IMG/VR virus record: IMGVR_UViG_3300046673_000306 | Coordinates: 32,001-96,000 of that record | Reading direction: 5' to 3' (one strand) | From: a virus | Length of the DNA: 64,000 nucleotides | Shown here: positions 2 to 20,975 of the stretch, piece after piece | Layout: every line of letters starts with the position of its first letter | Position numbering within the stretch: the first letter of the stretch is position 1 | Notes under the pieces: generated by a model | The model's database searches: none | What the model saw: only the letters and a program-made list of their open reading frames with translations | Told to the model about the DNA's origin: nothing | Position numbers and translations under genes: made by a program

Positions 2-1189
2 CTCAGCGACGGCTACTGCTTGTCCACGGTCAAGCACACGGAGCGGATCAGCGCAGCCGGTGACTACGTCGTCAGCAACCCCAGCGAGGACACCCCCGGA
101 GTGCTCTGGCTCAAGGAGCACGTGAGGTACTGCCGCCAGTGCTGGTGCGCAAACGCCTACAAGAACTACCTCGTCGAGTACCTCGAACAGCAACACCCGT
201 CCATGATCACGGCTTACCACCAGGGCAGGCTCTCTCCGACCATCCTGGGCAACGCCCTGCGCTCGATCCACAAGGCCAGGCCCAAGTTCGTGGACGAGAT
301 GATGAAGATCGTGACCTATAATGCGATGCCTCCGAACGCGCAGGCGGCCCTGGACTTCCGGGCGTTCTCCCAGGCCCTGGGCTCGTCTGGAGAGGCCATC
401 CTCAAGGGCACCCAGATCGTCAGGGTCGAGATCGAGGTCCTGTTCGACGCCTGGAACCTGCTGGGGTCTGCGCCGGAGTACGATAAGGACCGCCTCCTCT
501 CCGACTGGGAGTCGGGCAGGATCGTGCCGCCGTTCCCATCCACCTACTTCTCCCTGAGCGAGGGCGTCAACGACCACCTGATCAAGCACTTCTTAGACAA
601 CGTCCCTGGAGACCTGTTCGGGTCCTCGAACGCCCACGGCTTCCTCGCCATAAATCATGGAGAAAAACCACTCCTATTTGAGCGGTCTTACTGCCTGGAC
701 CCTAACGGGGAGGTGGCCAACGGATTCGCCAGGCCTAGCCAGGAGCAGATCGAGAGCCGGTCCTTCTTCTGGATCGTCCTGGTTCGGGCTCTCCAGGACG
801 AGGTCTTCGTCGCGGACAAGGTAATGGTCCCGGCCCGTGGCCTCAGGCCGAACCCGTGGGTCAAGGTGGTGTCGACCCCGGCGGACCTGTCCCAGGTCGT
901 CCCATTCTACGCCGTCCGCGCCAACCCCAAGAAGTCGTTCCGCGATTCTACGAGGGGCTACGGGCACCGCCAGATCGACTGGAGCCACCGCTGGTCCGTC
1001 ACCGGTCACTGGAGGCACTACAAGGATGGCCGGAAAATCTGGATCGGTTCCCACGTGAAGGGTCCGGAAGACAAGCCCCTGATCCCCTCGGTCCGGGTCT
1101 ACGCGAAGGATGGTCCGGGCGCTGCCGGATCGCCGGGCTGGCTGCGCCGCGTCTGGCGGCGCCTGGTCAGCCTCTGGCCTGGGTCTTGA
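2..1189 (+). CDS. Hypothetical phage protein, probably 5'-partial; C-terminal HRWxVxGHWR...WIxxHxKGP motif
   Basis: Frame is open from base 2 with GC-rich codon usage; this C-terminal motif recurs in uncharacterised phage proteins. Confidence 0.7.
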   Translation, partial: LSDGYCLSTVKHTERISAAGDYVVSNPSEDTPGVLWLKEHVRYCRQCWCANAYKNYLVEYLEQQHPSMITAYHQGRLSPTILGNALRSIHKARPKFVDEMMKIVTYNAMPPNAQAALDFRAFSQALGSSGEAILKGTQIVRVEIEVLFDAWNLLGSAPEYDKDRLLSDWESGRIVPPFPSTYFSLSEGVNDHLIKHFLDNVPGDLFGSSNAHGFLAINHGEKPLLFERSYCLDPNGEVANGFARPSQEQIESRSFFWIVLVRALQDEVFVADKVMVPARGLRPNPWVKVVSTPADLSQVVPFYAVRANPKKSFRDSTRGYGHRQIDWSHRWSVTGHWRHYKDGRKIWIGSHVKGPEDKPLIPSVRVYAKDGPGAAGSPGWLRRVWRRLVSLWPGS

Positions 1190-1220
1190 CAGTTTCAATT
1201 CATCATGGTATAATACTATT
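1181..1220 (+). promoter_or_regulatory. Consensus sigma70 promoter, copy 1 of a phage promoter repeat
   Basis: TTGACA 1186-1191, 17-bp spacer, TGG-TATAAT 1209-1214, ATG 6 nt downstream (1221). Confidence 0.9.
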
Positions 1221-1790: not shown

Positions 1791-4700
1791 GTGGAAGAGA
1801 TCAAGGTCACCCACCCACTGGAACTGGCCCTGGGGGGCCTCGGGCAGGCGGCGTCCCTGCCCGGGGCCCCGGCCCCTGGCCGACCGTGGGCACCGGCCTG
1901 GACGCCCCAGGCCCCCGGTGCCTGCCCCTTAACAGGGCAGGAGAAGGTGCTGACCCTGAGCCTCCTGGAGGGGTCCCTGATCAAGGTCGAGGCCAGTCCC
2001 GCGAGCCCGGACCTGTTCATCGAGATCAGCCGACTCCCGACCAGGGTCCAGAGGAAGGGGGCCCTCGGGGCCTCGTTCTACGACCTGCCAGGAATCCAGT
2101 CCGTGGCCATGTCCCAGGGCTACCGGATCGAGTACGCCCCAGAGGTGCAGGCCCTGATCGACAAGTGGAACCTCTGGTGCCTGGACCTGGAGCAGGTAAA
2201 AACGTTCTCCGACGTCTCAGGCTTCAGGGTTCCGGGCCTAGACGTGGAGTTCATGCCGTTTCAGGCTAGGGGCGTCGCCTACGGCTGCAAGATCAAGTCC
2301 TTCATGCTCTTGGACACCATGGGGCTAGGAAAGAGTATACAGGTATTGGGAATTCTGTACACCCATCGCCTGTCATTAGGTGGGCGCCTGGAGACCCTGA
2401 TCTTGTCCCCGACATCGGTCGTCGGAGACTGGCAGGCCAAGTTCAGGAAGTTCGCCAAGATCGAGGTGTCGGTAGCGACCGGGAGCAAGGCCAAGCGAAC
2501 CAAGGTCTATCAGGGCAAGCCCGAGTTCCTGCTCATGAGCTACGACGTCTTCATGCGGGACATGGTCGAGGTCGCCAAGAGCTTCCGGCCAAAGGCCCTG
2601 ATCTGTGATGAGTGCTTCCCCTATAATCAATTCGTAGCTACTAAAAATGGCTCCATCAGAATTGGGAGATTATATAACTTGTGGCTGGCCGGGAAGGCTC
2701 CTTTGATAAAGAGCCTCAACCTCGACAGCGGATCATTTGAGTACAGGAGTATTCTGAAGGCGTGGAAGAGAGAATTGAAGCCCATGGTGTATGTAGGAGG
2801 AAGTGGTTTCGGTTTCAGGTGCACTCCGGGCCATCTAATTCTCACTTCTATGGGGTGGGTGCCAGCAGGAAATTTGCGTGTTGGAGACTTTGTGACGACT
2901 GGGGCTGACATCTCTGGCCGAATAAGGTACTTGGCTCCTATGTTGAACAGCGACCAGAAACAGGTCTTGATAGGATCATTCTTGGGAGATGGGAATATCC
3001 ATCGACTTGGAGGTTGTCGATATAGGATCAGATTCCTGCATGGCGCCAAGCAGCGGAGGTACTTGGTTGAGAAGTCTAGAATTTTTGGCTGTAATAAAAT
3101 AGCCAAGATAAAAAACAACGGATATTCCGGCGGGATAGCTTATAGGGCAGCCAGCCAGGCATTCTTTTGCAAGGATATTCCCAAAGGAAAAAAAGAGTTT
3201 ATCCCCGACTGGATGATCGAAGAGATGGATGCGAGGGCGATAGCTATTTGGCTCTTGGACGACGCGTCATTCAATCACAAAAAAAAGCAGGTGGTCATCC
3301 ATACCAACAGATTCCCGGAATACTTAGTCGAGAGGCTTTGCGTTAGACTCAGGGAATTCGGCGTGAACTGTTATTGCTCCATCACGGCAAAGCACGATGG
3401 CAGATTCTTCTACTATATACGAATACCGGCTAGGGGCTACAAAAGAACAATGGAGCTGTGCGGGAAATTTTTCTTTCTTGGCATGGAAAAGAAAATACCC
3501 ATGGGCAGTGAGATTTATGAATGGAGTCCAAAATACCCAGAGGTGTCTCTAGGGCTAGTTACAACGATAGAGCAGGATGACAAGCCAAGAATCGAATCAG
3601 AGAATTTTTTATTCGATATCGAAATCGATGAGAACCATAACTTTGTGATCTGTTCTCCGTCAAATAAATCCCAGTCTGGGGTGGTGGTCCATAATTGCCA
3701 GCGCATTTCTAACAGGAAGAACAAGGCCGCGATCAGGCTCTTCGACTTTGTCGACGCCGCGCGACCCCAGTACCGGATAATGGCCAGCGGCAGCCCCATC
3801 GCGAACAAACCCATAGACCTCTGGAGCCTGCTGCGCCTGGTCAACGCCGACCTCGCCGGTTCCCCGACCCTGTTCGAGAAGCGGTACGCCAGGGAGAAGC
3901 TGATATACCACAAGGACAAGGCCACGGGCGAGGTCAAGCCCAAGGGGACCACCTACGGGTCCGGAGACAAGGCCAAGTTCGTGCCCCTGAAGAAGTTCGA
4001 GAACCTGAACCCGAAAAAACCCGCCGACGCGATCCTACTCCGCGAACTCCGGGCCAAGATCAGCCCGTGGCTGATCCGCAGGCTGAAGAAGGACGTGCTC
4101 ACCGACCTCCCCGAGACCACGGAGGAGACGATCAGCATCAAGCTGGGGCCCCGGGAGCGCAAGGTCTACGAGGAGCTGCAAGCCCGCTTCGCCGAGGCCA
4201 TGGCCGGGGTCGCGGACGAGGACTCGGAGAACAGGGTCGACAATTTCTTTACCTGGTTCATCCGCGCGCAGCAGGTGTGCTGCTCCCTGGAGATCGGAGG
4301 ACACGGCAAGGAGTCGTCCAAGATCGATGAGCTAAGGAAGTTCGTCGAGGACTACTCCGAGGAGCAGAAAATCCTTATCTTCAGCCGGTTCAAGGGCATG
4401 ACCGACATCGTCCACCGGGAGATGAAGGAGTACAACCCCGCGTACCTGCACGGGGCCGTAGCGCAGGCAGACAGGCAGCCTCTGGTGGACAGGTTCCAGA
4501 CCGAGGACGACTGCCGACTCTTCATCTCGACCCTGGGCGCCGGTGGCGTGGGCTTGACCCTCACCGCAGGGTCCATCGTCGCCAGGCTCGACCGCTGGGT
4601 CAGCCCGATCCTCAACGATCAGTGCGTGGCCAGGGCTGACCGAATAGGTCAGAAGCGCAACGTCCTGGTCGTGGATTTCGTCGTCCGCGACAGCGTCGAG

Positions 4701-4835
4701 GAGCGCATCTTAGGAATCCTGGAGGGCAAGTCCAGGATGATCAACAGCCTCATCGTCTCGGAGCAGTCCGAGGAGCAGCAGGAGAAGAAGATTCTCCGGG
4801 CCCTAGGTAAGCAGGGGATGCTCAAGCTCATCTGA
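1791..4835 (+). CDS. SNF2-family helicase containing an intein
   Basis: Walker A DTMGLGKS; Walker B ICDE|CQ split by the intein; SGSPIAN; LIFSRF; GGVGLTLT; QCVARADRIGQ. Confidence 0.92.
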   Translation: MEEIKVTHPLELALGGLGQAASLPGAPAPGRPWAPAWTPQAPGACPLTGQEKVLTLSLLEGSLIKVEASPASPDLFIEISRLPTRVQRKGALGASFYDLPGIQSVAMSQGYRIEYAPEVQALIDKWNLWCLDLEQVKTFSDVSGFRVPGLDVEFMPFQARGVAYGCKIKSFMLLDTMGLGKSIQVLGILYTHRLSLGGRLETLILSPTSVVGDWQAKFRKFAKIEVSVATGSKAKRTKVYQGKPEFLLMSYDVFMRDMVEVAKSFRPKALICDECFPYNQFVATKNGSIRIGRLYNLWLAGKAPLIKSLNLDSGSFEYRSILKAWKRELKPMVYVGGSGFGFRCTPGHLILTSMGWVPAGNLRVGDFVTTGADISGRIRYLAPMLNSDQKQVLIGSFLGDGNIHRLGGCRYRIRFLHGAKQRRYLVEKSRIFGCNKIAKIKNNGYSGGIAYRAASQAFFCKDIPKGKKEFIPDWMIEEMDARAIAIWLLDDASFNHKKKQVVIHTNRFPEYLVERLCVRLREFGVNCYCSITAKHDGRFFYYIRIPARGYKRTMELCGKFFFLGMEKKIPMGSEIYEWSPKYPEVSLGLVTTIEQDDKPRIESENFLFDIEIDENHNFVICSPSNKSQSGVVVHNCQRISNRKNKAAIRLFDFVDAARPQYRIMASGSPIANKPIDLWSLLRLVNADLAGSPTLFEKRYAREKLIYHKDKATGEVKPKGTTYGSGDKAKFVPLKKFENLNPKKPADAILLRELRAKISPWLIRRLKKDVLTDLPETTEETISIKLGPRERKVYEELQARFAEAMAGVADEDSENRVDNFFTWFIRAQQVCCSLEIGGHGKESSKIDELRKFVEDYSEEQKILIFSRFKGMTDIVHREMKEYNPAYLHGAVAQADRQPLVDRFQTEDDCRLFISTLGAGGVGLTLTAGSIVARLDRWVSPILNDQCVARADRIGQKRNVLVVDFVVRDSVEERILGILEGKSRMINSLIVSEQSEEQQEKKILRALGKQGMLKLI
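2613..3695 (+). mobile_element. Intein (361 aa) with LAGLIDADG homing endonuclease
   Basis: Begins CFPYNQ, block B FRCTPGH, LAGLIDADG-like IGSFLGDG and AIWLLDD, ends FDIEIDENHNF...VVHN followed by Cys; markedly AT-richer than the flanks. Confidence 0.95.
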
Positions 4836-8751: not shown

Positions 8752-9054
8752 ATGAGCGAGTCCTACGACTGCTTCCGGGACAGGCTCCCGAACGCGGTGT
8801 GCATGGGCGACAAGCACTCGTGCTGCGCGCGCTGCGTCAACAGCAAGAGCGAAGAAGAGAGGAGGGCCCTGATAATGGGCCGGGAGATTCCCGATGGTAA
8901 TTATCCCTTGACAACACTTAAAACAAATAGGACTTTACAACGGAAAATAATATGCTATACTATAAATGCTCCCGGTGGATTTTCTATTTACGGGTCGTCC
9001 GTGCCGACGGGAAACCATCGGGAGCCACGGACGACCCACTTTTATGATTCTTAA
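8752..9054 (+). CDS. Small Cys-rich ORF whose 3' end is replaced by the tnpB element
   Basis: First ~48 codons are phage-like, then the frame reads into the element's left end. Confidence 0.4.
   Translation: MSESYDCFRDRLPNAVCMGDKHSCCARCVNSKSEEERRALIMGREIPDGNYPLTTLKTNRTLQRKIICYTINAPGGFSIYGSSVPTGNHREPRTTHFYDS
8934..8961 (+). promoter_or_regulatory. Probable tnpB promoter (extended -10)
   Basis: TTTACA 8934-8939, 16 bp, TGcTATACT 8953-8961. Confidence 0.5.
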
Positions 9055-10231
9055 AACTTTCCAGCTAAGGCTCTACCCAAATCGTCGGCAGACGCGCTTG
9101 CTATCCAAACATTTCGGCTGTGCCCGCTTCGTCTACAACTGGGGGCTGGCAAAGAAACGGGACGAATATGAGAAAACTGGGAAGTCCTCCACATGGGTCG
9201 CTCTCTGCAAAGAACTAACCATATTGAAGCAGGGCACCTATTGGCTGTGTGAGGTAGCCACTGCTCCATTACAATCTTCTATCCGGCATCTCGACGCGGC
9301 TTACCAGAAGTTTTTCAAGGAGAAGAAAGGATATCCGGCGTTCAAGCGCAAACACGGACGTCAGGCATTTCAGTATCCGGAGAACGTTAAGGTTAACGCC
9401 GAAAAGCGTCAGTTGTATTTCCCATGCATCGGATGGGTACGCTACCTCGATGGGCGCAGTATGGACGGGCAGATTAAAACCGTGACCGTAGTGCGTAGCG
9501 CGACGGGTAAGCACTACGCGCAGGTCCTGGTTTTACTACCTGATAATATCCCTGAGAAGAAGCCTCTCGATAAGTCGCGTGCGGTTGGCATTGATGTCGG
9601 CCTGACGACATTCGCTACATTCTCTGACGGGCGCAAGGTCGCTAACCCGCGTTTCCTAAAATGGAGTCTTAAAAAGCTGGCGACGGCAAACAGGCATCTG
9701 AGTCGGACGCGGAAAGGTTCAGAGAACCGTGGCAAGGCGCGGTTACATTTGGCATTGGCTCACGAGAAGGTCGCTAACCGCAGAAAAGATTTCCTGCATA
9801 AACTGACGACACAGATGGTAAACGAAAACCAAGTTGACACCTGGGTCATCGAGACGTTGAACGTAGCCGGTATGGTCAAACTGCGGAGCCTATCGAGAAG
9901 CATTCATGATGCCAGCTGGTCGGAGTTTGTACGTCAGCTAGTGTATAAATGTGACTGGCGTGGTAAGAACTTGATAAAGATTGGTAGGTTCATGCCGTCG
10001 TCTAAGATGTGCTCTTGCGGTGCAGTAAATGATGACTTGCGTTTGGCTGACCGGACGTGGACGTGCAGGATGTGCGGGGTTACGCATGACAGGGATATCC
10101 TAGCGGCCCAGAACATTCTGAAGTTTTCTAATCTAAATACCGAGGGCAACCCGGGAATTAACGCCTCTGGAGAGGAAGGTCGTAAACTTCCCCGTGGAAA
10201 GAGGAAATCCATACGTGTTCGGAAGGGATAG
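9044..10231 (+). CDS. tnpB: RNA-guided endonuclease TnpB (IS200/IS605 OrfB type)
   Basis: N-terminal RLYP...FGCARFVYN; RuvC-I GIDVG, RuvC-II IETL, zinc finger CSCG/CRMCG, RuvC-III DRDILAAQNI; catalytic D/E/D intact. Confidence 0.95.
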   Translation: MILKTFQLRLYPNRRQTRLLSKHFGCARFVYNWGLAKKRDEYEKTGKSSTWVALCKELTILKQGTYWLCEVATAPLQSSIRHLDAAYQKFFKEKKGYPAFKRKHGRQAFQYPENVKVNAEKRQLYFPCIGWVRYLDGRSMDGQIKTVTVVRSATGKHYAQVLVLLPDNIPEKKPLDKSRAVGIDVGLTTFATFSDGRKVANPRFLKWSLKKLATANRHLSRTRKGSENRGKARLHLALAHEKVANRRKDFLHKLTTQMVNENQVDTWVIETLNVAGMVKLRSLSRSIHDASWSEFVRQLVYKCDWRGKNLIKIGRFMPSSKMCSCGAVNDDLRLADRTWTCRMCGVTHDRDILAAQNILKFSNLNTEGNPGINASGEEGRKLPRGKRKSIRVRKG

Positions 10232-15508: not shown

Positions 15509-15548
15509 AGTGGTATTGTACCAGGTAATACTGATGCTGTCAAGACCC
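15509..15548 (-). promoter_or_regulatory. Sigma70 promoter, copy 2
   Basis: GGGTC-TTGACA (15543-15538), 17 bp, TACAAT (15520-15515). Confidence 0.88.
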
Positions 15549-15597
15549 GGGCCAGAATCTGGGCCCCGATCCGGTTGAGGTCCCATGTCCAGTTTTT

Positions 15598-15637
15598 GGG
15601 TCTTGACAAGATCAGTTCAACCTGGTACAATACTAAT
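15598..15637 (+). promoter_or_regulatory. Sigma70 promoter, copy 3
   Basis: GGGTC-TTGACA 15603-15608, 17 bp, TACAAT 15626-15631. Confidence 0.88.
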
Positions 15638-15880
15638 ATGACTGAAACCAAGATCGACCTGGATCAGGACGAAGCCTACCTGATGAACGACGAGCTGTCC
15701 CGCCTCAGCGAGGACTACCATAGGGACGAGTCCGTCAAAGCAGCGGCCAAGGACTTACTGGCGGCCCTGAAGGGCCTCCTCTCGGACAAGTACTTGGCCG
15801 ACCCGATCAACGCCGACAGAATGACCGCCGCCCGCCTCGCCGTGGACAAGGCCGAGCCGTGGAGGAAACCGAGATCATGA
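15638..15880 (+). CDS. Small early protein, probably leaderless
   Basis: 80 aa; AAKDLLAALK..L...ARLAVDKA motif common in small phage proteins. Confidence 0.7.
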   Translation: MTETKIDLDQDEAYLMNDELSRLSEDYHRDESVKAAAKDLLAALKGLLSDKYLADPINADRMTAARLAVDKAEPWRKPRS

Positions 15881-15888
15881 TTCCGTCT

Positions 15889-15928
15889 GGGTCTTGACAA
15901 GCTGAGTTCAACCTGGTATAATACTATC
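15889..15928 (+). promoter_or_regulatory. Sigma70 promoter, copy 4
   Basis: GGGTC-TTGACA 15894-15899, 17 bp, TATAAT 15917-15922. Confidence 0.9.
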
Positions 15929-16051
15929 ATGACCATGAAACTGATGACCAAGGAAATCCGAAACCGCATTCGCATGGGCCTGGGAATCGAGCGCGACCTG
16001 AGCTTCCGGCCCACGCCTCTGTCCAAGATCAAGTCCGGGGAGGTCAGATGA
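15929..16051 (+). CDS. 40-aa basic leaderless ORF (MTMKLMTKEIRNRIRMG...)
   Basis: ATG 6 nt after the -10 box; ATGA overlap with the next gene. Confidence 0.55.
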   Translation: MTMKLMTKEIRNRIRMGLGIERDLSFRPTPLSKIKSGEVR

Positions 16052-16788
16052 ACATGGATGGCCAGCCGGTCCTGCCGGGCATGGAACCACTGCGCTACCA
16101 GATCGAGGACGCCGAGCACCGCCGGGACTACGTCCCGGTCCGGTGCGCGATCTGCGAGAAGGAGATGACGTACGACGAACACCAGAACGCGTCCTGCGGT
16201 GAGGAGGCCACCCAGTACGAAGGCGATCCGATCTGTGAGACCTGCTACTGCGAGGATGAGGCCGAGGCCACGTTAAGGGTCTTTGATGCGGATAACCCGG
16301 AAGGCGAGGGAGACTATGGAACCTCGATCTTCGAGATCGGGTCCTGCAAGAACATGACCGCTTGCGACGGCGACATCGGGACCTGGCGGACCAAGTGGGT
16401 GAGAACCGATGCCTGGCGCGGCTATATCGACCTGATCCCGCCCAAGGACTGGGCTCAGTTTCACTCCGACTGCTCGCTCATGGCCTCCGAGGACTCGGCG
16501 ATGCTGGAAAAGTACGACGCCGCAGTACGCAAGGCCTTCATCGCGAAGGGCGTGCGGCTGATCCGGGCTGCGCTCAGGACCTCGAACTGCTGCTCCACTG
16601 GGGTCGATTACTTCGTCGAGAAGAAGTTCCTGAAGTGGGCGACTGCGGCGTCGCGCAAGCTCGCCGACGTCTTCCGGGACCCGGTCCGGTTCAATATGAC
16701 GGCGATCACGGGCAAGGACCCGGCGAGCGCCGGGGTCGACGACTACGTCGTGGCCGCGCTCGGGGCCAAGCTCCTGGGAGGGAAATAG
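16048..16788 (+). CDS. Hypothetical protein with CxxC...CxxC
   Basis: 246 aa; GGAGG SD; WVRTDAWRGY motif. Confidence 0.78.
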   Translation: MNMDGQPVLPGMEPLRYQIEDAEHRRDYVPVRCAICEKEMTYDEHQNASCGEEATQYEGDPICETCYCEDEAEATLRVFDADNPEGEGDYGTSIFEIGSCKNMTACDGDIGTWRTKWVRTDAWRGYIDLIPPKDWAQFHSDCSLMASEDSAMLEKYDAAVRKAFIAKGVRLIRAALRTSNCCSTGVDYFVEKKFLKWATAASRKLADVFRDPVRFNMTAITGKDPASAGVDDYVVAALGAKLLGGK

Positions 16789-16789
16789 C

Positions 16790-16954
16790 GTGTTCAAGAT
16801 AAAAATCGATACTGATTGCATCGCTGCCGATGACCGGGAGCAGGAAATCCACAGGATTCTCCAGCGCGTGGCCGTCAGGGTCTGCGCCGGAGAAACGTCT
16901 GGGAAGTGCATGGATATCAATGGAAATTCCATTGGGGACTGGGAACTACAATGA
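16790..16954 (+). CDS. Small protein MFKIKIDT...EIHRIL...DINGNSIGDW (54 aa; not in the ORF track)
   Basis: GTG start after GGAGG; ATGA overlap; motif typical of small phage proteins. Confidence 0.65.
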   Translation: MFKIKIDTDCIAADDREQEIHRILQRVAVRVCAGETSGKCMDINGNSIGDWELQ

Positions 16955-17478
16955 GCGGAATCGCGAGCAAGCCGATCATTGTAACGTCCAAGGTTTACGC
17001 CAAGATCAAGGAGTGGGCAGACGCCGGTCGCGTCGTCAACCACTTCCTGTGCCAGGACCTCTCGTGCCTGACAACGTACTTCTCCCCGAACCCCGAGTGC
17101 TGCTGCCCCAACCACGCCTGGGCCTGCCCCGGGAAGATCGAGGCCGCAGACGTCAAGCTCGCGGACCTCAAGGTCGAGGCCGTGGTCGCTCAGCCCGTGG
17201 CCTTCAAGGACTTGGTGATCTACTGGAGAGAGTCGAACCAGATGTCGATCGTCCTGGAGATTCCCGGACACTGGCGCCCGATCAAGGCCGTGTCCTTCGG
17301 CTATATCGGCGGGATCATGGGCATGGACCGGGCCACCCGCGCCGAGATCAAGCGCGAGCACGGCCAGAAGAAGCCGACGAAGTGGCTCAAGGCCGCGCGT
17401 GAGGACGGGTCCCTGGAGGATATCCTGAACCGGTTCGGCTACACGCTGAACGCCGAGCCCAAGGTCCTGGAGGCCTGA
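16951..17478 (+). CDS. Hypothetical protein
   Basis: 175 aa; coupled start. Confidence 0.7.
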   Translation: MSGIASKPIIVTSKVYAKIKEWADAGRVVNHFLCQDLSCLTTYFSPNPECCCPNHAWACPGKIEAADVKLADLKVEAVVAQPVAFKDLVIYWRESNQMSIVLEIPGHWRPIKAVSFGYIGGIMGMDRATRAEIKREHGQKKPTKWLKAAREDGSLEDILNRFGYTLNAEPKVLEA

Positions 17479-17480
17479 CC

Positions 17481-17723
17481 ATGGAATTGTTCCGAGTCAC
17501 GTCCGGGGCCTTCCTCGGGAGATGGATAATCGAGAAGTGGGGGTATGCCCTGATCCTGGAGTGGTGGCGCAGAGCTGCCCCGGGGATCGGCGCCCACGGC
17601 TACGTCCATCCAATCGCCGACGGAGACTGGGCCGTGGACTTAACCGTAATGATGTGGCGCCGAGACCTGAGGAGCCAATTCGTCAATCACAACCCAGGCT
17701 TCAGGTACCGGCAGGGGGAATGA
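17481..17723 (+). CDS. Hypothetical protein
   Basis: GGAGG SD; 80 aa. Confidence 0.55.
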   Translation: MELFRVTSGAFLGRWIIEKWGYALILEWWRRAAPGIGAHGYVHPIADGDWAVDLTVMMWRRDLRSQFVNHNPGFRYRQGE

Positions 17724-18058
17724 TCATGCCCAAGAACAAGTGGTACTGCGTCAAGAAGGCCTTCTGGTTCACCTCGAAGAAGGCGGAGAAGAAGTACGAC
17801 CGCATCGTCGAGGCCCTGTCCGAGGCCAACGAGGAGGCCGTCGTCTACCACGGCTACGAGATGGCCCTCGTGGGGATAGCCCACCGCTTTGGAATGGAGC
17901 CGGTCGCGGCGTACGACCGCTCGACGTGCATCGCCATCCTCATGGACCGCGATGAGATGACCCACGAGGACGCCGAGGACTACTTCGGCTACAACACCCT
18001 AGGGACCGGAGTTGATAATGCCCCGATCTTCGTGGAGATGGCGGAAGACATACCGTGA
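17720..18058 (+). CDS. Conserved phage hypothetical protein
   Basis: GYEMALVG...AAYD...EDAEDYFGYNTLG...PIFV motif. Confidence 0.7.
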   Translation: MIMPKNKWYCVKKAFWFTSKKAEKKYDRIVEALSEANEEAVVYHGYEMALVGIAHRFGMEPVAAYDRSTCIAILMDRDEMTHEDAEDYFGYNTLGTGVDNAPIFVEMAEDIP

Positions 18059-18068
18059 GGAGGATATT

Positions 18069-19319
18069 ATGGTTATGAAGATTGTTGATTCCAGCGGCTC
18101 CTCTGGCAGGGGTTCATTCAGGGATGACCTCGTCAAGCTGATGAAGAAGCTGGAGCCGGGAGAAGGCGTCCAGGTCCCCCGGTCTGATCTACCGCGCAAC
18201 TACGGCCAGCTTGTCGTCGACCTCATGCGCGATCCCCTTCCGTTCCCGTGGCACCTGAACGAGGAATCAGATGAGTCCGTCACCTTCTATAGGGACGCCG
18301 CCAAACCCAAGTTTGAGCCAGCTGCGAAGCCAGCTCATCAGGCTCCAGACAAGCTTCTGACTCCGCCAGCCCCAGAACCAAAGCCCGATTCTCCCGTTTA
18401 CGACACCGACCGGGGCAGCATCAACAGGATCATCGAGGAGGTCAAGGTCAGGGGTGGGAGTTTCCCAGTCCCGAAGACGCTGTTCCGCGACGCGATCTCC
18501 CGATCCTTTTGTATGGGAGAACTGAGGCATCTAGGGTACAGGGTCGATAAGGGCATCAATTTCGACGTGATCATCGCTCCCGAACCTGTCCCGTGTCCGA
18601 AGGTCGAGAATGGTAAGAAGAACCAGGCCCCCAAGGATATTACCCATCGTTCGCCCTTGGTCAAGGTCCCGATGCGGGAGCGCATCCTTACCTCTATCAA
18701 GAAAAATCCCGGCATAGCTCACAGCGCACTCAGGAAGAAATTCACACGGAGCACCGAGGAGGGCAAAAAGTTCGATAATGCTATTGGCGACCTGCTCGTG
18801 GAGAACTTAGTTGTCTCCACTTCAGTGAAATGGACAGGACCATATGGTCTGAAGACGACCTATAGGATCGTTGGTGCCAAGGCAGCCGCGACCGAAGTCG
18901 CACCGGTCCACGGTCAACACCCGGCCAAGACAGTGGTTCTTGGAGTGGAGGCCGCACCCAAGCCTGTTCTTTCCCCGGCGCCGCCCGTGGTAACGCCCGC
19001 GCTGCCCAAGACGGAGCCCCAGCCGAAGCCCGAGCCGAAGCCCGAGCCGAAGCCCCAGCCGAAGCCCGAGGCCAAGCCCATCACCAGAGAAGAGGTCGCG
19101 GCTGTCCAGAAGATGATCAAGCCCGAGAAGTTCCCGACCGGGAACAGGTGCTTCGCCTGCGTGGACGAGGACCATGTCCGGGTCTGCGGCGAGACCGCGT
19201 CCGTGACCTACAAGCAGGTCCGGCTCTGCCGCACCCACATGAACAGGCTGTTTTATGCCCGGAAGCTCTACGTCCGGACTTCGTTGAAGCACAATCCGAT
19301 ACTGCTCAAGAAGACATAG
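18069..19319 (+). CDS. Multi-domain probable DNA-binding protein (wHTH-like segment, Pro-rich linker, C-terminal Cys/His)
   Basis: GAGGAGG SD; RERILTSIKKNPGI...LLVENLV; CFAC...C...CxxH. Confidence 0.6.
   Translation: MVMKIVDSSGSSGRGSFRDDLVKLMKKLEPGEGVQVPRSDLPRNYGQLVVDLMRDPLPFPWHLNEESDESVTFYRDAAKPKFEPAAKPAHQAPDKLLTPPAPEPKPDSPVYDTDRGSINRIIEEVKVRGGSFPVPKTLFRDAISRSFCMGELRHLGYRVDKGINFDVIIAPEPVPCPKVENGKKNQAPKDITHRSPLVKVPMRERILTSIKKNPGIAHSALRKKFTRSTEEGKKFDNAIGDLLVENLVVSTSVKWTGPYGLKTTYRIVGAKAAATEVAPVHGQHPAKTVVLGVEAAPKPVLSPAPPVVTPALPKTEPQPKPEPKPEPKPQPKPEAKPITREEVAAVQKMIKPEKFPTGNRCFACVDEDHVRVCGETASVTYKQVRLCRTHMNRLFYARKLYVRTSLKHNPILLKKT
19014..19079 (+). repeat. 12-bp tandem repeat encoding (P[E/Q]PK)n
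   Basis: About 5 units of gccgaagccc(c/g)a. Confidence 0.8.
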
Positions 19320-19332
19320 GGAGGAGACCACA

Positions 19333-19923
19333 ATGACCGAGGAGAAGAAGGCCGAGATGTGGCTGAAGCGCCACACGTCTTACGACTGCGCGATCTGCGG
19401 CGTGGCCCACGAGCCCGCCCAGCGCCCGAAGGTGGAATATGGCAAGCTGACCAAGGCCCAGCGCCTGCTCTGGGACGTGGCCTCCACTTACGAGTACCAC
19501 TCCCGCTTCGTGGTCGGGTCCGAGGAGGGTGAGGCCGTGAAGCGGATCAAGGCCTGGCTGAAGCCCGGAGACACCGTCTACACCGTGCTCCGGCGCCGGT
19601 CGTCGTCCGGGACGTGTAGCCACATCTCGACCCTGGGGATAGAGGTCGAGGGCGGTAAGCCCCGGATCGTGGACTACACCTGGAACGTGGCCAAGATCGT
19701 GGGCTGGAAGATGGACCGCGACACCGGCGGGATCGTGATCAGCGGCGGCGGCATGGACATGGGCTTTCACCTGGTTTATACCCTGAGCCGGATCGTCTTC
19801 GCCAAGTTCCCGTGCATCGGCGGAGCCTGCCCGAGCAACGACCACGTAAACGGCGACCGGAACCACGAGGTCGGCCACCTGCACAGCGATGGGGGCTACG
19901 CGCTGAAGCGCCAGTGGATGTAG
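19333..19923 (+). CDS. Conserved phage hypothetical protein
   Basis: GDTVYTVLR..S.SG...GGGMDMGFHLVY motif; GGAGGAG SD. Confidence 0.8.
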   Translation: MTEEKKAEMWLKRHTSYDCAICGVAHEPAQRPKVEYGKLTKAQRLLWDVASTYEYHSRFVVGSEEGEAVKRIKAWLKPGDTVYTVLRRRSSSGTCSHISTLGIEVEGGKPRIVDYTWNVAKIVGWKMDRDTGGIVISGGGMDMGFHLVYTLSRIVFAKFPCIGGACPSNDHVNGDRNHEVGHLHSDGGYALKRQWM

Positions 19924-19933
19924 GAGGGGGACA

Positions 19934-20155
19934 ATGAAGCTACGCTATGTCAGGGCATCGGGGGTCAGAAGTTTCTTTAAGGAACGTGGCTTGCGTACAT
20001 CGGCTGGGTTCCTAGAATCCCTAGATCGCGAGGTCTGCGAGATGCTGGTCAAGTACCAGGTCATGGCCAAGGCGGACCGGCGCAGGACTGTGCTGGCCTG
20101 CGATATTTCCCTTCCTGGGGTGATCGCTAAACTCAGTCGGGGGATGCGCCGATAA
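19934..20155 (+). CDS. Bacterial-type single histone-fold protein
   Basis: 73 aa, basic; VRxSxVR.....GLRTS..F...L...AKADRRRTVLACDI carries the RxTxxxxD histone motif; AGGAGG SD. Confidence 0.8.
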   Translation: MKLRYVRASGVRSFFKERGLRTSAGFLESLDREVCEMLVKYQVMAKADRRRTVLACDISLPGVIAKLSRGMRR

Positions 20156-20216: not shown

Positions 20217-20975
20217 TCAGGCTGCGGGGGCCCTGTCGGGCTCCCCGATCTGATCCTGGCAGTAGTTCCTGAAAATTCCAGCGAAAACGCCCCTGGATAT
20301 CAGCTCCCGATACCAGGCCTTCCTCAGCAGGTCCGTGGACGCGGGGTCAAAGGCGCTCCCGCAGTCCAGGATCGCGACCGGGACCTTGAGACCGGCGTAG
20401 GCCTGCTCGTCCTCCATGAGACCGGCCACAGGCTTGGGCTTGCGCCGGGTCCGCTTCGAGACCTCTCGGATCACGCCGTCGGCCAGCTCCGCAGCACCTC
20501 CGACGCCGTTGTGCCTGATCTCCAGGCCGTCGTCCTCGACGTAGTTCGTGATGTTGATCGCGACCACGATATCGGCGCGGATGTGCCTGGCGAAGTTGAT
20601 CCTGGCGTTCTGATCCTGCTCCAGGCACGTCTTCCCCTGCCCCCAGACGTCCTGCGACAGGTGCTCCTCCGTGGGGTTGGGCCTGAGGCTGGGCCTCATC
20701 CTGGCGTAGCGCAGGTAGTGGCTCGCGCTCTCGTGGAACAGCGGGTACTGGGACTTCCCGATCTCCGAGTGCGACCGCCTCATGCACCGGGTCGCGAAGA
20801 TGTCGGCGCCGATGATCCTGAGGAGGTCGTAGACGGTGGAGGAAATCTCTGACGTGATGATGTCTCCTGGAACCCCGACTACGGGCTTCCTTTGGTAGCG
20901 CCATTCGGCCTTGTCGTCCCGATAGAGCCCACCGAGGGGGTCGAGCAGGATTCTGCGTCCTCTGATGTCGTTCAT
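20217..20975 (-). CDS. Amidase_3 (N-acetylmuramoyl-L-alanine amidase) homolog with degenerate active site
   Basis: ILLDPLGG, ATR, ARINFA...ADIVVAIN, GLEI, VPVAILDCG, ISRGVFAGI. Confidence 0.72.
   Translation of the reverse strand: MNDIRGRRILLDPLGGLYRDDKAEWRYQRKPVVGVPGDIITSEISSTVYDLLRIIGADIFATRCMRRSHSEIGKSQYPLFHESASHYLRYARMRPSLRPNPTEEHLSQDVWGQGKTCLEQDQNARINFARHIRADIVVAINITNYVEDDGLEIRHNGVGGAAELADGVIREVSKRTRRKPKPVAGLMEDEQAYAGLKVPVAILDCGSAFDPASTDLLRKAWYRELISRGVFAGIFRNYCQDQIGEPDRAPAA

What the first reader, a model, noticed from the sequence alone, without database searches (positions are those of the whole stretch)
19934..20155. Phage-encoded bacterial-type histone at the end of the early operon
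The 73-aa basic protein has single histone-fold spacing and AKADRRRTVLACDI (RxTxxxxD), closely resembling Bdellovibrio Bd0055-type histones as I recall them. It could coat phage DNA, shield it from nucleases or interfere with a host histone. It also hints that the host lineage encodes histones.
Basis: partly seen in the sequence, partly recalled or inferred. Interest (0 to 1): 0.7.

Follow-up and report, generated by a model that had tools for sequence, protein, structure and literature searches.

The report
Phage-encoded Bdellovibrio-type miniature histone
A large uncultured tailed phage carries a real 73-codon gene for a small, very basic bacterial-type histone that probably pairs up and binds or bends DNA early in infection. 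A 2024-2025 computer survey already catalogued phage histones of this kind, so this is a well-supported new member and not a new kind of thing.

Summary
The ORF at 19934-20155 (+) is real: ATG start, GGAGGGGG ribosome-binding site, 73 aa, pI 10.9. It is the last gene of a rightward gene block that begins at two consensus sigma-70-type promoters. It sits in an IMG/VR virus record with sheath, baseplate, tail-fibre and endolysin genes.

Pfam and PHROGs find nothing. A profile of 25 family members matches Bdellovibrio HBb/Bd0055 at E=9e-11. An AlphaFold2 model (pLDDT 88) gives HBb, HLp and HTkC as the three best matches, and nearly all the other top matches are histone-fold proteins.

R50-x-T52-xxxx-D57, D48, the loop-1 Ser, basic alpha1 residues and the hydrophobic dimer core are kept. 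The face-to-face tetramer residues are absent.

About 23 relatives of 69-77 aa (one called as 123 aa) share an extra conserved amphipathic basic C-terminal helix. All four members with known context lie at a syntenic spot in related phages with contigs up to 139 kb.

[quoted passage not shown] (hLife 2025). This scan has also flagged phage histones on at least 15 other genomes.

DNA binding, dimerisation, timing and host are inferred, not shown. The hint that the host encodes histones could not be tested.

The parts
19934..20155 (+). Gene for the 73-aa HBb/Bd0055-type histone-fold protein. Predicted helices: alpha1 at 8-16, alpha2 at 24-47, and alpha3 plus C-terminal helix at 56-71. RxTxxxxD is R50..D57.
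19923..19930 (+). Shine-Dalgarno sequence GGAGGGGG, 3 nt before the ATG. It starts at the last base of the upstream gene's stop codon (19921-19923), so the two genes are probably read from one transcript.
   Evidence: sequence read directly
15894..15922 (+). Perfect consensus sigma-70-type promoter (TTGACA-17-TATAAT with TG) at the head of the rightward gene block that ends with the histone gene.
   Evidence: 4 such sites in the window, 0 expected
15603..15631 (+). Second rightward near-consensus promoter (TTGACA-17-TACAAT with TG).
15515..15543 (-). Divergent leftward near-consensus promoter of the same type.
16048..19923 (+). Upstream genes of the same rightward block: ORFs 16048-16788, 16906-17478, about 17720-18058, 18012-19319 and 19333-19923. 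All are of unknown function, and none is conserved in the related phages.
20217..20960 (-). Convergent conserved gene of unknown function that starts the leftward lysis and tail module. It is the conserved downstream landmark of the histone locus in all relatives. The start coordinate is approximate.

Best explanation
The gene encodes a miniature histone of the alpha3 family and the HBb/Bd0055 ('bacterial dimer') type, carried by a lineage of large uncultured myovirus-like phages. Inferred mechanism: two chains pair antiparallel along alpha2 through a conserved hydrophobic core. The paired L1/L2 loops and the N-terminus of alpha1 then contact the DNA backbone without sequence preference, and so bend or compact DNA as HBb does. 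The family-specific amphipathic, basic C-terminal helix either adds DNA contacts or joins dimers together. Host RNA polymerase probably transcribes the gene from strong sigma-70-type promoters, so the protein would be made early. It probably acts as a phage nucleoid-associated protein on replicating phage DNA, or on host DNA. Shown here: the gene is real, sits in a phage, has a histone fold, is homologous to HBb, keeps the key residues, and is conserved and syntenic. Inferred: dimerisation, DNA binding, timing of expression and biological role.
For: Sequence: phmmer against PDB gives HBb (8fvx/8cmp) at E=3e-4. The profile of 6 extended members gives E=1e-8. The profile of 25 members gives E=9e-11 for HBb, 5e-9 for HTkC, 4e-5 for HLp and 0.018 for histone H3.

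Structure: the AF2 model built on the 25-sequence alignment has pLDDT 88.4 and a helix-loop-helix-loop-helix layout. Foldseek ranks HBb, HLp and HTkC chains first (TM by target 0.82-0.87, rmsd 1.0-1.7 A), and every listed match is a histone. VIA-align against 48,161 chains, run without Foldseek, gives HBb Z 7.0, HLp 6.9 and HTkC 6.7, then TAFs, MHF, CENP-A and other histone-fold proteins.

Residues were mapped with the alignment onto the HBb DNA contacts listed in PMC11317129. Counts are out of 23 extended members: T52 23, D48 23, S23 20, basic at position 12 in 23, basic at position 21 in 23, K/R51 20, S/T9 19. The dimer-core positions 11, 30, 34, 37 and 58 are hydrophobic throughout, apart from one Arg at position 37. 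pI is 10-11.8.

Context: the record has tail sheath, baseplate wedge, tail collar and endolysin genes and is an IMG/VR virus record. The gene is single-copy and syntenic in related phage contigs L010, L011 and L012. In L012 a TTGACA-17-TATACT promoter lies 30 nt upstream of the ATG. In the window, consensus promoters head the block.
Against: No multimer model and no experiment, so dimerisation and DNA binding rest on homology alone. The HBb contact R57 is replaced (C56 here; V or I in most of the family). K10 is G in this protein. The RD clamp is not universal in the family: D57 is H in 7 of 23 and R50 is M in 5 of 23. How HBb itself binds DNA is disputed, as filament or as bending (PMC11390915, PMC13681535). 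Early timing is inferred only from promoter consensus. Pfam and PHROGs give no match.
Confidence: 0.75

Rival explanations
1. The protein forms higher-order assemblies (tetramers or filaments) through its long alpha3/C-terminal helix and wraps, bridges or coats DNA, rather than acting as an isolated bending dimer. In that case it could shield phage DNA from host nucleases.
For: The deeper AF2 model predicts one helix over residues 56-71, much longer than the single turn of HBb. In nucleosomal histones the end of alpha2 plus alpha3 form the dimer-dimer four-helix bundle. The C-terminal helix is conserved (L60, I64, L67, R73) and amphipathic.
Against: pLDDT falls to 63-71 over residues 61-73, and the shallow-alignment model split this region differently. 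A conserved Leu-Pro at 60-61 suggests a kink, so this may not be a true long alpha3. Liu et al. predict dimers for their Bd0055-like viral class. No multimer prediction could be run here.
Confidence: 0.15
2. The protein is an anti-host factor. It heterodimerises with, or competes against, a host-encoded histone or other nucleoid protein and so disrupts the host chromosome or silencing.
For: It is homologous to bacterial histones. It appears to be expressed from strong host-type promoters. The nearest Atlas clusters include Bdellovibrionota, Planctomycetota and Spirochaetota histones.
Against: The host is unknown, so no host histone is known. Identity to HBb is only about 35%, and the exhaustive search found no close bacterial relative (8 hits with E up to 0.001 among 1.84 billion representatives). 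The residues that contact DNA are conserved, which a pure protein decoy would not need.
Confidence: 0.07
3. It is a histone-fold protein that has lost general DNA binding and serves as a protein-protein module or a specific regulator, for example of the early-to-late switch.
For: Schwab et al. caution that not all histone-fold proteins organise genomes. The gene lies at the boundary between the early-type block and the late lysis and tail module.
Against: The net charge of +8 to +11 and the conserved L1/L2 backbone-contact residues fit non-specific DNA binding.
Confidence: 0.03

Closest known systems
[quoted passage not shown]
   Same: Encoded by Caudoviricetes records of IMG/VR. Detected by similarity to bacterial-dimer/Bd0055 histones. 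High structural similarity to Bd0055. The C-terminus forms a helix in place of Bd0055's flexible end.
   Different: Whether this exact protein is in their set could not be checked, because no supplement text is held. Their class is predicted only and none has been tested. Here the family is also tied to one lineage of large phages with a fixed genomic position.
HBb / Bd0055 of Bdellovibrio bacteriovorus, the 'bacterial dimer' alpha3 histone (PDB 8fvx, 8cmp, 9ezz, 9f0e; PMC11317129)
   Same: About 35-37% identity over 55-59 residues. Same alpha1-L1-alpha2-L2 layout with a short alpha2. RxTxxxxD with the extra Asp (D48, matching HBb D49), the K/R-T pair in L2, T/S-S in L1, and the hydrophobic dimer core.
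   Different: Phage-encoded, not cellular. It has an extra conserved helix of 11-16 residues after the alpha3 turn. The HBb R57 contact is lost. It has an added conserved Arg (R49) in L2.
Face-to-face (FtF) alpha3 histones HTkC (9f2c) and HLp (9qt0)
   Same: Same alpha3-family fold (Z 6.7-6.9) and profile hits at 5e-9 and 4e-5.
   Different: The FtF dimer-dimer residues are absent. In the FtF logo these are N two residues before, and R six residues before, the R of RxT. The matching positions here are invariant D48 and hydrophobic position 44.
'Phage histones' of Schwab et al. 2024 (A0A2E7QIQ9 type; VTTHFP of Liu et al.)
   Same: Phage-borne alpha3 histone fold with a C-terminal helix.
   Different: Those lack RxTxxxD and carry a long tetramerising helix joined by a loop. 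This protein keeps RxTxxxxD and has only a short helix directly after alpha3.

Membership tests
Histone fold (superfamily) | alpha1-L1-alpha2-L2-alpha3 helix-strand-helix architecture | tested here: met
   AF2 model with pLDDT 88.4 and helices at 8-16, 24-47 and 56-71. All listed Foldseek matches and nearly all of the top 35 VIA-align matches are histone-fold proteins.
alpha3 histones, 'bacterial dimer' / HBb type (Schwab et al. 2024) | Significant sequence similarity to HBb/Bd0055 | tested here: met
   E=3e-4 with the single sequence, 1e-8 with the 6-member profile and 9e-11 with the 25-member profile.
alpha3 histones, 'bacterial dimer' / HBb type (Schwab et al. 2024) | RxTxxxxD / RKTxxxD motif (RD clamp) | tested here: met
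   R50, R51, T52 and D57 are present in this protein. Across the family T52 is in 23/23, R50 in 16/23 and D57 in 16/23, with H in the other 7.
alpha3 histones, 'bacterial dimer' / HBb type (Schwab et al. 2024) | alpha2 shorter than in nucleosomal histones | tested here: met
   alpha2 spans 24 residues (24-47) in the model. It aligns end to end with HBb alpha2.
alpha3 histones, 'bacterial dimer' / HBb type (Schwab et al. 2024) | alpha3 truncated to 3-4 residues | tested here: inconclusive
   The deep model gives one helix over 56-71. The shallow model gives no alpha3 and a separate helix over 60-70. A conserved Leu-Pro at 60-61 may mark a short alpha3 turn followed by a distinct C-terminal helix.
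alpha3 histones, 'bacterial dimer' / HBb type (Schwab et al. 2024) | Conserved basic residues on alpha1 | tested here: met
   R12 and K16 are present. Position 12 is basic in 23/23. Position 10 is K in 18/23 but G in this protein.
alpha3 histones, 'bacterial dimer' / HBb type (Schwab et al. 2024) | Dimer as the only confident oligomer; category described as exclusive to bacteria | not testable with these tools
   No multimer prediction was available. The gene is phage-borne, so it belongs under the viral counterpart class (BBVHFP) and not the bacterial category.
BBVHFP (Liu et al. 2025) | Caudoviricetes-encoded, Bd0055-like fold, C-terminal helix in place of a flexible end | tested here: met
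   Phage context. HBb is the best structural match. A C-terminal helix is predicted and conserved.
Face-to-face (FtF) histones | Tetramerisation residues N52 and R48 (FtF logo numbering) | tested here: not met
   The equivalent positions are D48 (23/23) and position 44 (I, V, T or M).
Schwab 'phage histones' / VTTHFP | No RxTxxxD; long loop-linked C-terminal tetramerisation helix | tested here: not met
   The RxTxxxxD motif is present. The C-terminal helix is short and directly follows alpha3.
DNA-binding nucleoid-associated protein (functional class) | Binds DNA | not testable with these tools
   Only inferred, from conserved HBb contact residues and pI 10.9.

The most novel reading that the evidence does not exclude
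In this phage lineage the histone has regained a long alpha3/C-terminal helix that lets dimers polymerise on DNA. Made at once from strong host-type promoters, it would coat the incoming or replicating phage genome as a protective chromatin against host nucleases. In relatives it may be removed again by the adjacent HExxH (SprT-like?) protease before packaging.
Probability: 0.1. Interest if true: 0.75.

Novelty: new member of a known kind. Interest (0 to 1): 0.38.

Why it matters
Bacterial histones were recognised only in 2023-2024, and phage copies were catalogued by computer in 2024-2025. I found no bench test of a phage copy in the held literature. This locus offers a clean candidate: a short gene, about 23 orthologues for design and covariation work, a clear promoter context, and a lineage-specific C-terminal helix that may alter oligomerisation. 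It adds no new class. It does give a defined family in which to test what a histone does for a phage.

Tried and rejected
- Pfam and PHROGs on the protein gave no family. Scanning all 25 members against Pfam gave only sub-threshold DUF1931 and CBFD_NFYB_HMF hits.
- tblastn of the protein and blastn of the region against 50,697 GenBank phage records found nothing.
- Single-protein scans of IMG/VR with P0001, P0007, P0003 and P0010 found nothing. Only P0018 gave loci. The A1 alignment was too variable for a pattern scan.
- Host inference failed by every route tried:
  - TnpB relatives are only 34-43% identical and lie in Firmicutes.
  - Helicase and tail-sheath matches reach isolated phages only remotely.
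  - The window has no tRNA genes.
  - The ends of the two relatives that IMG/VR labels 'provirus' are phage-like with no host flank.
- No intrinsic terminator follows the gene. A GC hairpin about 70 nt downstream is not better than shuffles (z -1.07).
- P0006, a 567-aa hit, is a low-complexity repeat and was discarded.
- An HU/IHF-type 'histone-like' fold was considered. Neither fold search gave it support.

Full report
**Observation.** The ORF at window 19934..20155 (+) exists as described and encodes the quoted 73-aa protein. The upstream gene (19333..19923) stops 10 nt before it. A GGAGGGGG Shine-Dalgarno sequence lies at 19923-19930, 3 nt before the ATG. The protein has pI 10.9, with 17 K+R against 7 D+E. 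R50-R-T52-V-L-A-C-D57 fits RxTxxxxD.

**The replicon.** The window is bases 32001-96000 of a 106,545-bp IMG/VR virus record that CheckV rates 64% complete. The exact protein occurs on 15 contigs, the longest 159 kb. The window carries these phage genes:
- tail sheath
- baseplate wedge
- tape-measure-like gene
- tail-collar fibre
- M15 endolysin
- two helicases, one of them SNF2-type with a LAGLIDADG intein
- a TnpB gene

This is a large myovirus-like phage. It is only remotely related to any isolated phage.

**Is it a histone? Sequence evidence.** Pfam and PHROGs give nothing. Direct phmmer against PDB sequences gives HBb/Bd0055 (8fvx, 8cmp) at E=3e-4 over residues 7-60.

An exhaustive phmmer search of 1.84 billion cluster representatives found only 8 hits with E up to 0.001. 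A profile search then raised the family to about 25 proteins. JGI had already named some of them 'histone H3/H4'.

Profile searches against PDB gave these E-values:

| Profile | HBb | HTkC | HLp | Histone H3 |
|---|---|---|---|---|
| 6 extended members, leaving out the shorter P0010 | 1e-8 | 2e-6 | 0.015 | 0.092 |
| All 25 members | 9e-11 | 5e-9 | 4e-5 | 0.018 |

**Is it a histone? Structural evidence.** AlphaFold2 on the 25-sequence alignment gives pLDDT 88.4, with helices at 8-16, 24-47 and 56-71. Foldseek against the PDB lists only histones. HBb, HLp and HTkC come first, with TM by target 0.82-0.87 and rmsd 1.0-1.7 A. VIA-align against 48,161 representative chains, run independently of Foldseek, puts HBb (Z 7.0), HLp (6.9) and HTkC (6.7) on top. 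TAFs, MHF, CENP-A and nucleosomal histones follow. These Z values are modest in absolute terms, as expected for a 73-residue chain. The uniformity of the list and the sequence E-values make the assignment safe.

**Which kind of histone.** I mapped the alignment onto the HBb residues described in PMC11317129 and counted the 23 extended members.

Conserved positions:
- Dimer-core positions 11, 30, 34, 37 and 58 are hydrophobic throughout, apart from one Arg at position 37.
- D48 (HBb D49) and T52 (T53) are invariant.
- Position 51 (K52) is K or R in 20.
- S23 (S24) is kept in 20.
- Position 12 (K12) is basic in all 23.
- Position 21 (N22) is basic in all 23.
- Position 9 (S9) is S or T in 19.

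Differences from HBb:
- HBb R57 is replaced by C, V or I.
- K10 is G in this protein.
- D57 is H in 7 of 23, and R50 is M in 5 of 23.

The face-to-face tetramer residues are absent. In the FtF logo these are N two residues before, and R six residues before, the R of RxT. The matching positions here are D48 and hydrophobic position 44. The 'phage histone' type of Schwab et al. lacks RxTxxxD and has a long loop-linked helix, so it does not fit either.

All 23 members also share a conserved tail after alpha3, of the form (D/H)-I-x-L-P-x-x-I-A-x-L-S-R-x-L-x-R. It is amphipathic and basic. It is predicted as a helix, either continuous with alpha3 or separate from it. [quoted passage not shown]

**Context and conservation.** Four perfect or near-perfect TTGACA-N17-TAYAAT promoters with a TG extension occur in the window, against none expected. 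Three cluster at 15515-15922, and two of these face the rightward block 16048-20155, whose last gene is the histone. Beyond it the genes converge: a conserved unknown gene, membrane proteins, the endolysin and the tail fibres.

Three related phage contigs carry one histone copy each at the same landmark:
- L010, from a JGI metagenome
- L011, a 139-kb IMG/VR record
- L012, a 62-kb IMG/VR record

In each the histone lies upstream of the homologue of window 20217-20960 (-). The other genes of the window's block (16048-19923) have no counterpart in those contigs. The histone is thus the conserved element of an otherwise variable region.

In L012 the histone is the first gene after a TTGACA-17-TATACT promoter, 30 nt upstream of its ATG. 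So 'end of the early operon' is true for this phage but is not a family trait. Early expression is inferred from the promoter type only.

**Function.** The most likely reading (about 0.75) is an HBb-like dimer that binds the DNA backbone non-specifically and bends or compacts DNA, acting as a phage nucleoid-associated protein. The C-terminal helix may add DNA contacts or link dimers. A higher-order, DNA-coating assembly is the main rival (about 0.15). A decoy against a host histone is possible but unsupported, because the host is unknown and no close bacterial relative exists. The ESM Atlas gives viral (Uroviricota) clusters as the nearest by features, then Bdellovibrionota, Planctomycetota and Spirochaetota histones. 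That agrees with the assignment but does not name a host.

**Novelty.** Schwab et al. (PMC11390915) defined the alpha3 histones. Liu et al. [quoted passage not shown] I found no experimental work on any phage member. Earlier notes of this scan report phage Bd0055-type or alpha3 histones on at least 15 other genomes, with the same verdict. I reached mine from my own searches before reading them. This is a well-supported new member of a known, predicted-only class.

**Limits.** The host is not identified. Whether this protein is in the published BBVHFP list could not be checked.

Noticed in passing
L011:10229-10900, L012:10222-10869, L010:5756-6385: In all three related phages the histone gene is followed directly by a conserved gene of 205-225 aa (46-67% identity to one another). 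It has an HEIAHxYD...GHRA zincin-like motif and a basic coiled-coil tail. Its Pfam SprT-like hit is below threshold (E=8e-4, 19.7 bits against a 25.6 cut-off). There is no PDB match and no homologue in the 106-kb record of this window. This may be a histone plus metalloprotease pair.
   Followed up: partly
window 1791-4835 (+): SNF2-family helicase interrupted by an intein with a LAGLIDADG homing endonuclease. Liu et al. report a histone-SNF2 association for giant viruses. Here it may be coincidence.
   Followed up: no
window 8966-10231 (+): TnpB (OrfB_IS605 plus Cas12f-like TNB) in a lower-GC stretch (0.567). The closest genomic relatives are only 34-43% identical and lie in Firmicutes.
   Followed up: partly
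window 1186-1214, 15515-15543, 15603-15631, 15894-15922: Four consensus TTGACA-N17-(TG)TAYAAT promoters, against none in 100 shuffles. Three cluster in one divergent control region.
   Followed up: partly
window 18012-19319 (+): A 435-aa protein in the same block, with a (PEPK)n-type proline-rich linker and a Cys/His-rich C-terminus. No Pfam or PHROG match.
   Followed up: no
L010:6382-7563 (+): A caspase-domain (Peptidase_C14) protein with a lipoprotein-like N-terminus lies two genes after the histone in the related contig.
   Followed up: no
G001 and G002 (records of L011 and L012): IMG/VR labels both relatives 'provirus', yet both ends of each record are phage-like and similar to G000, with no host flank or tRNA.
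   Followed up: partly
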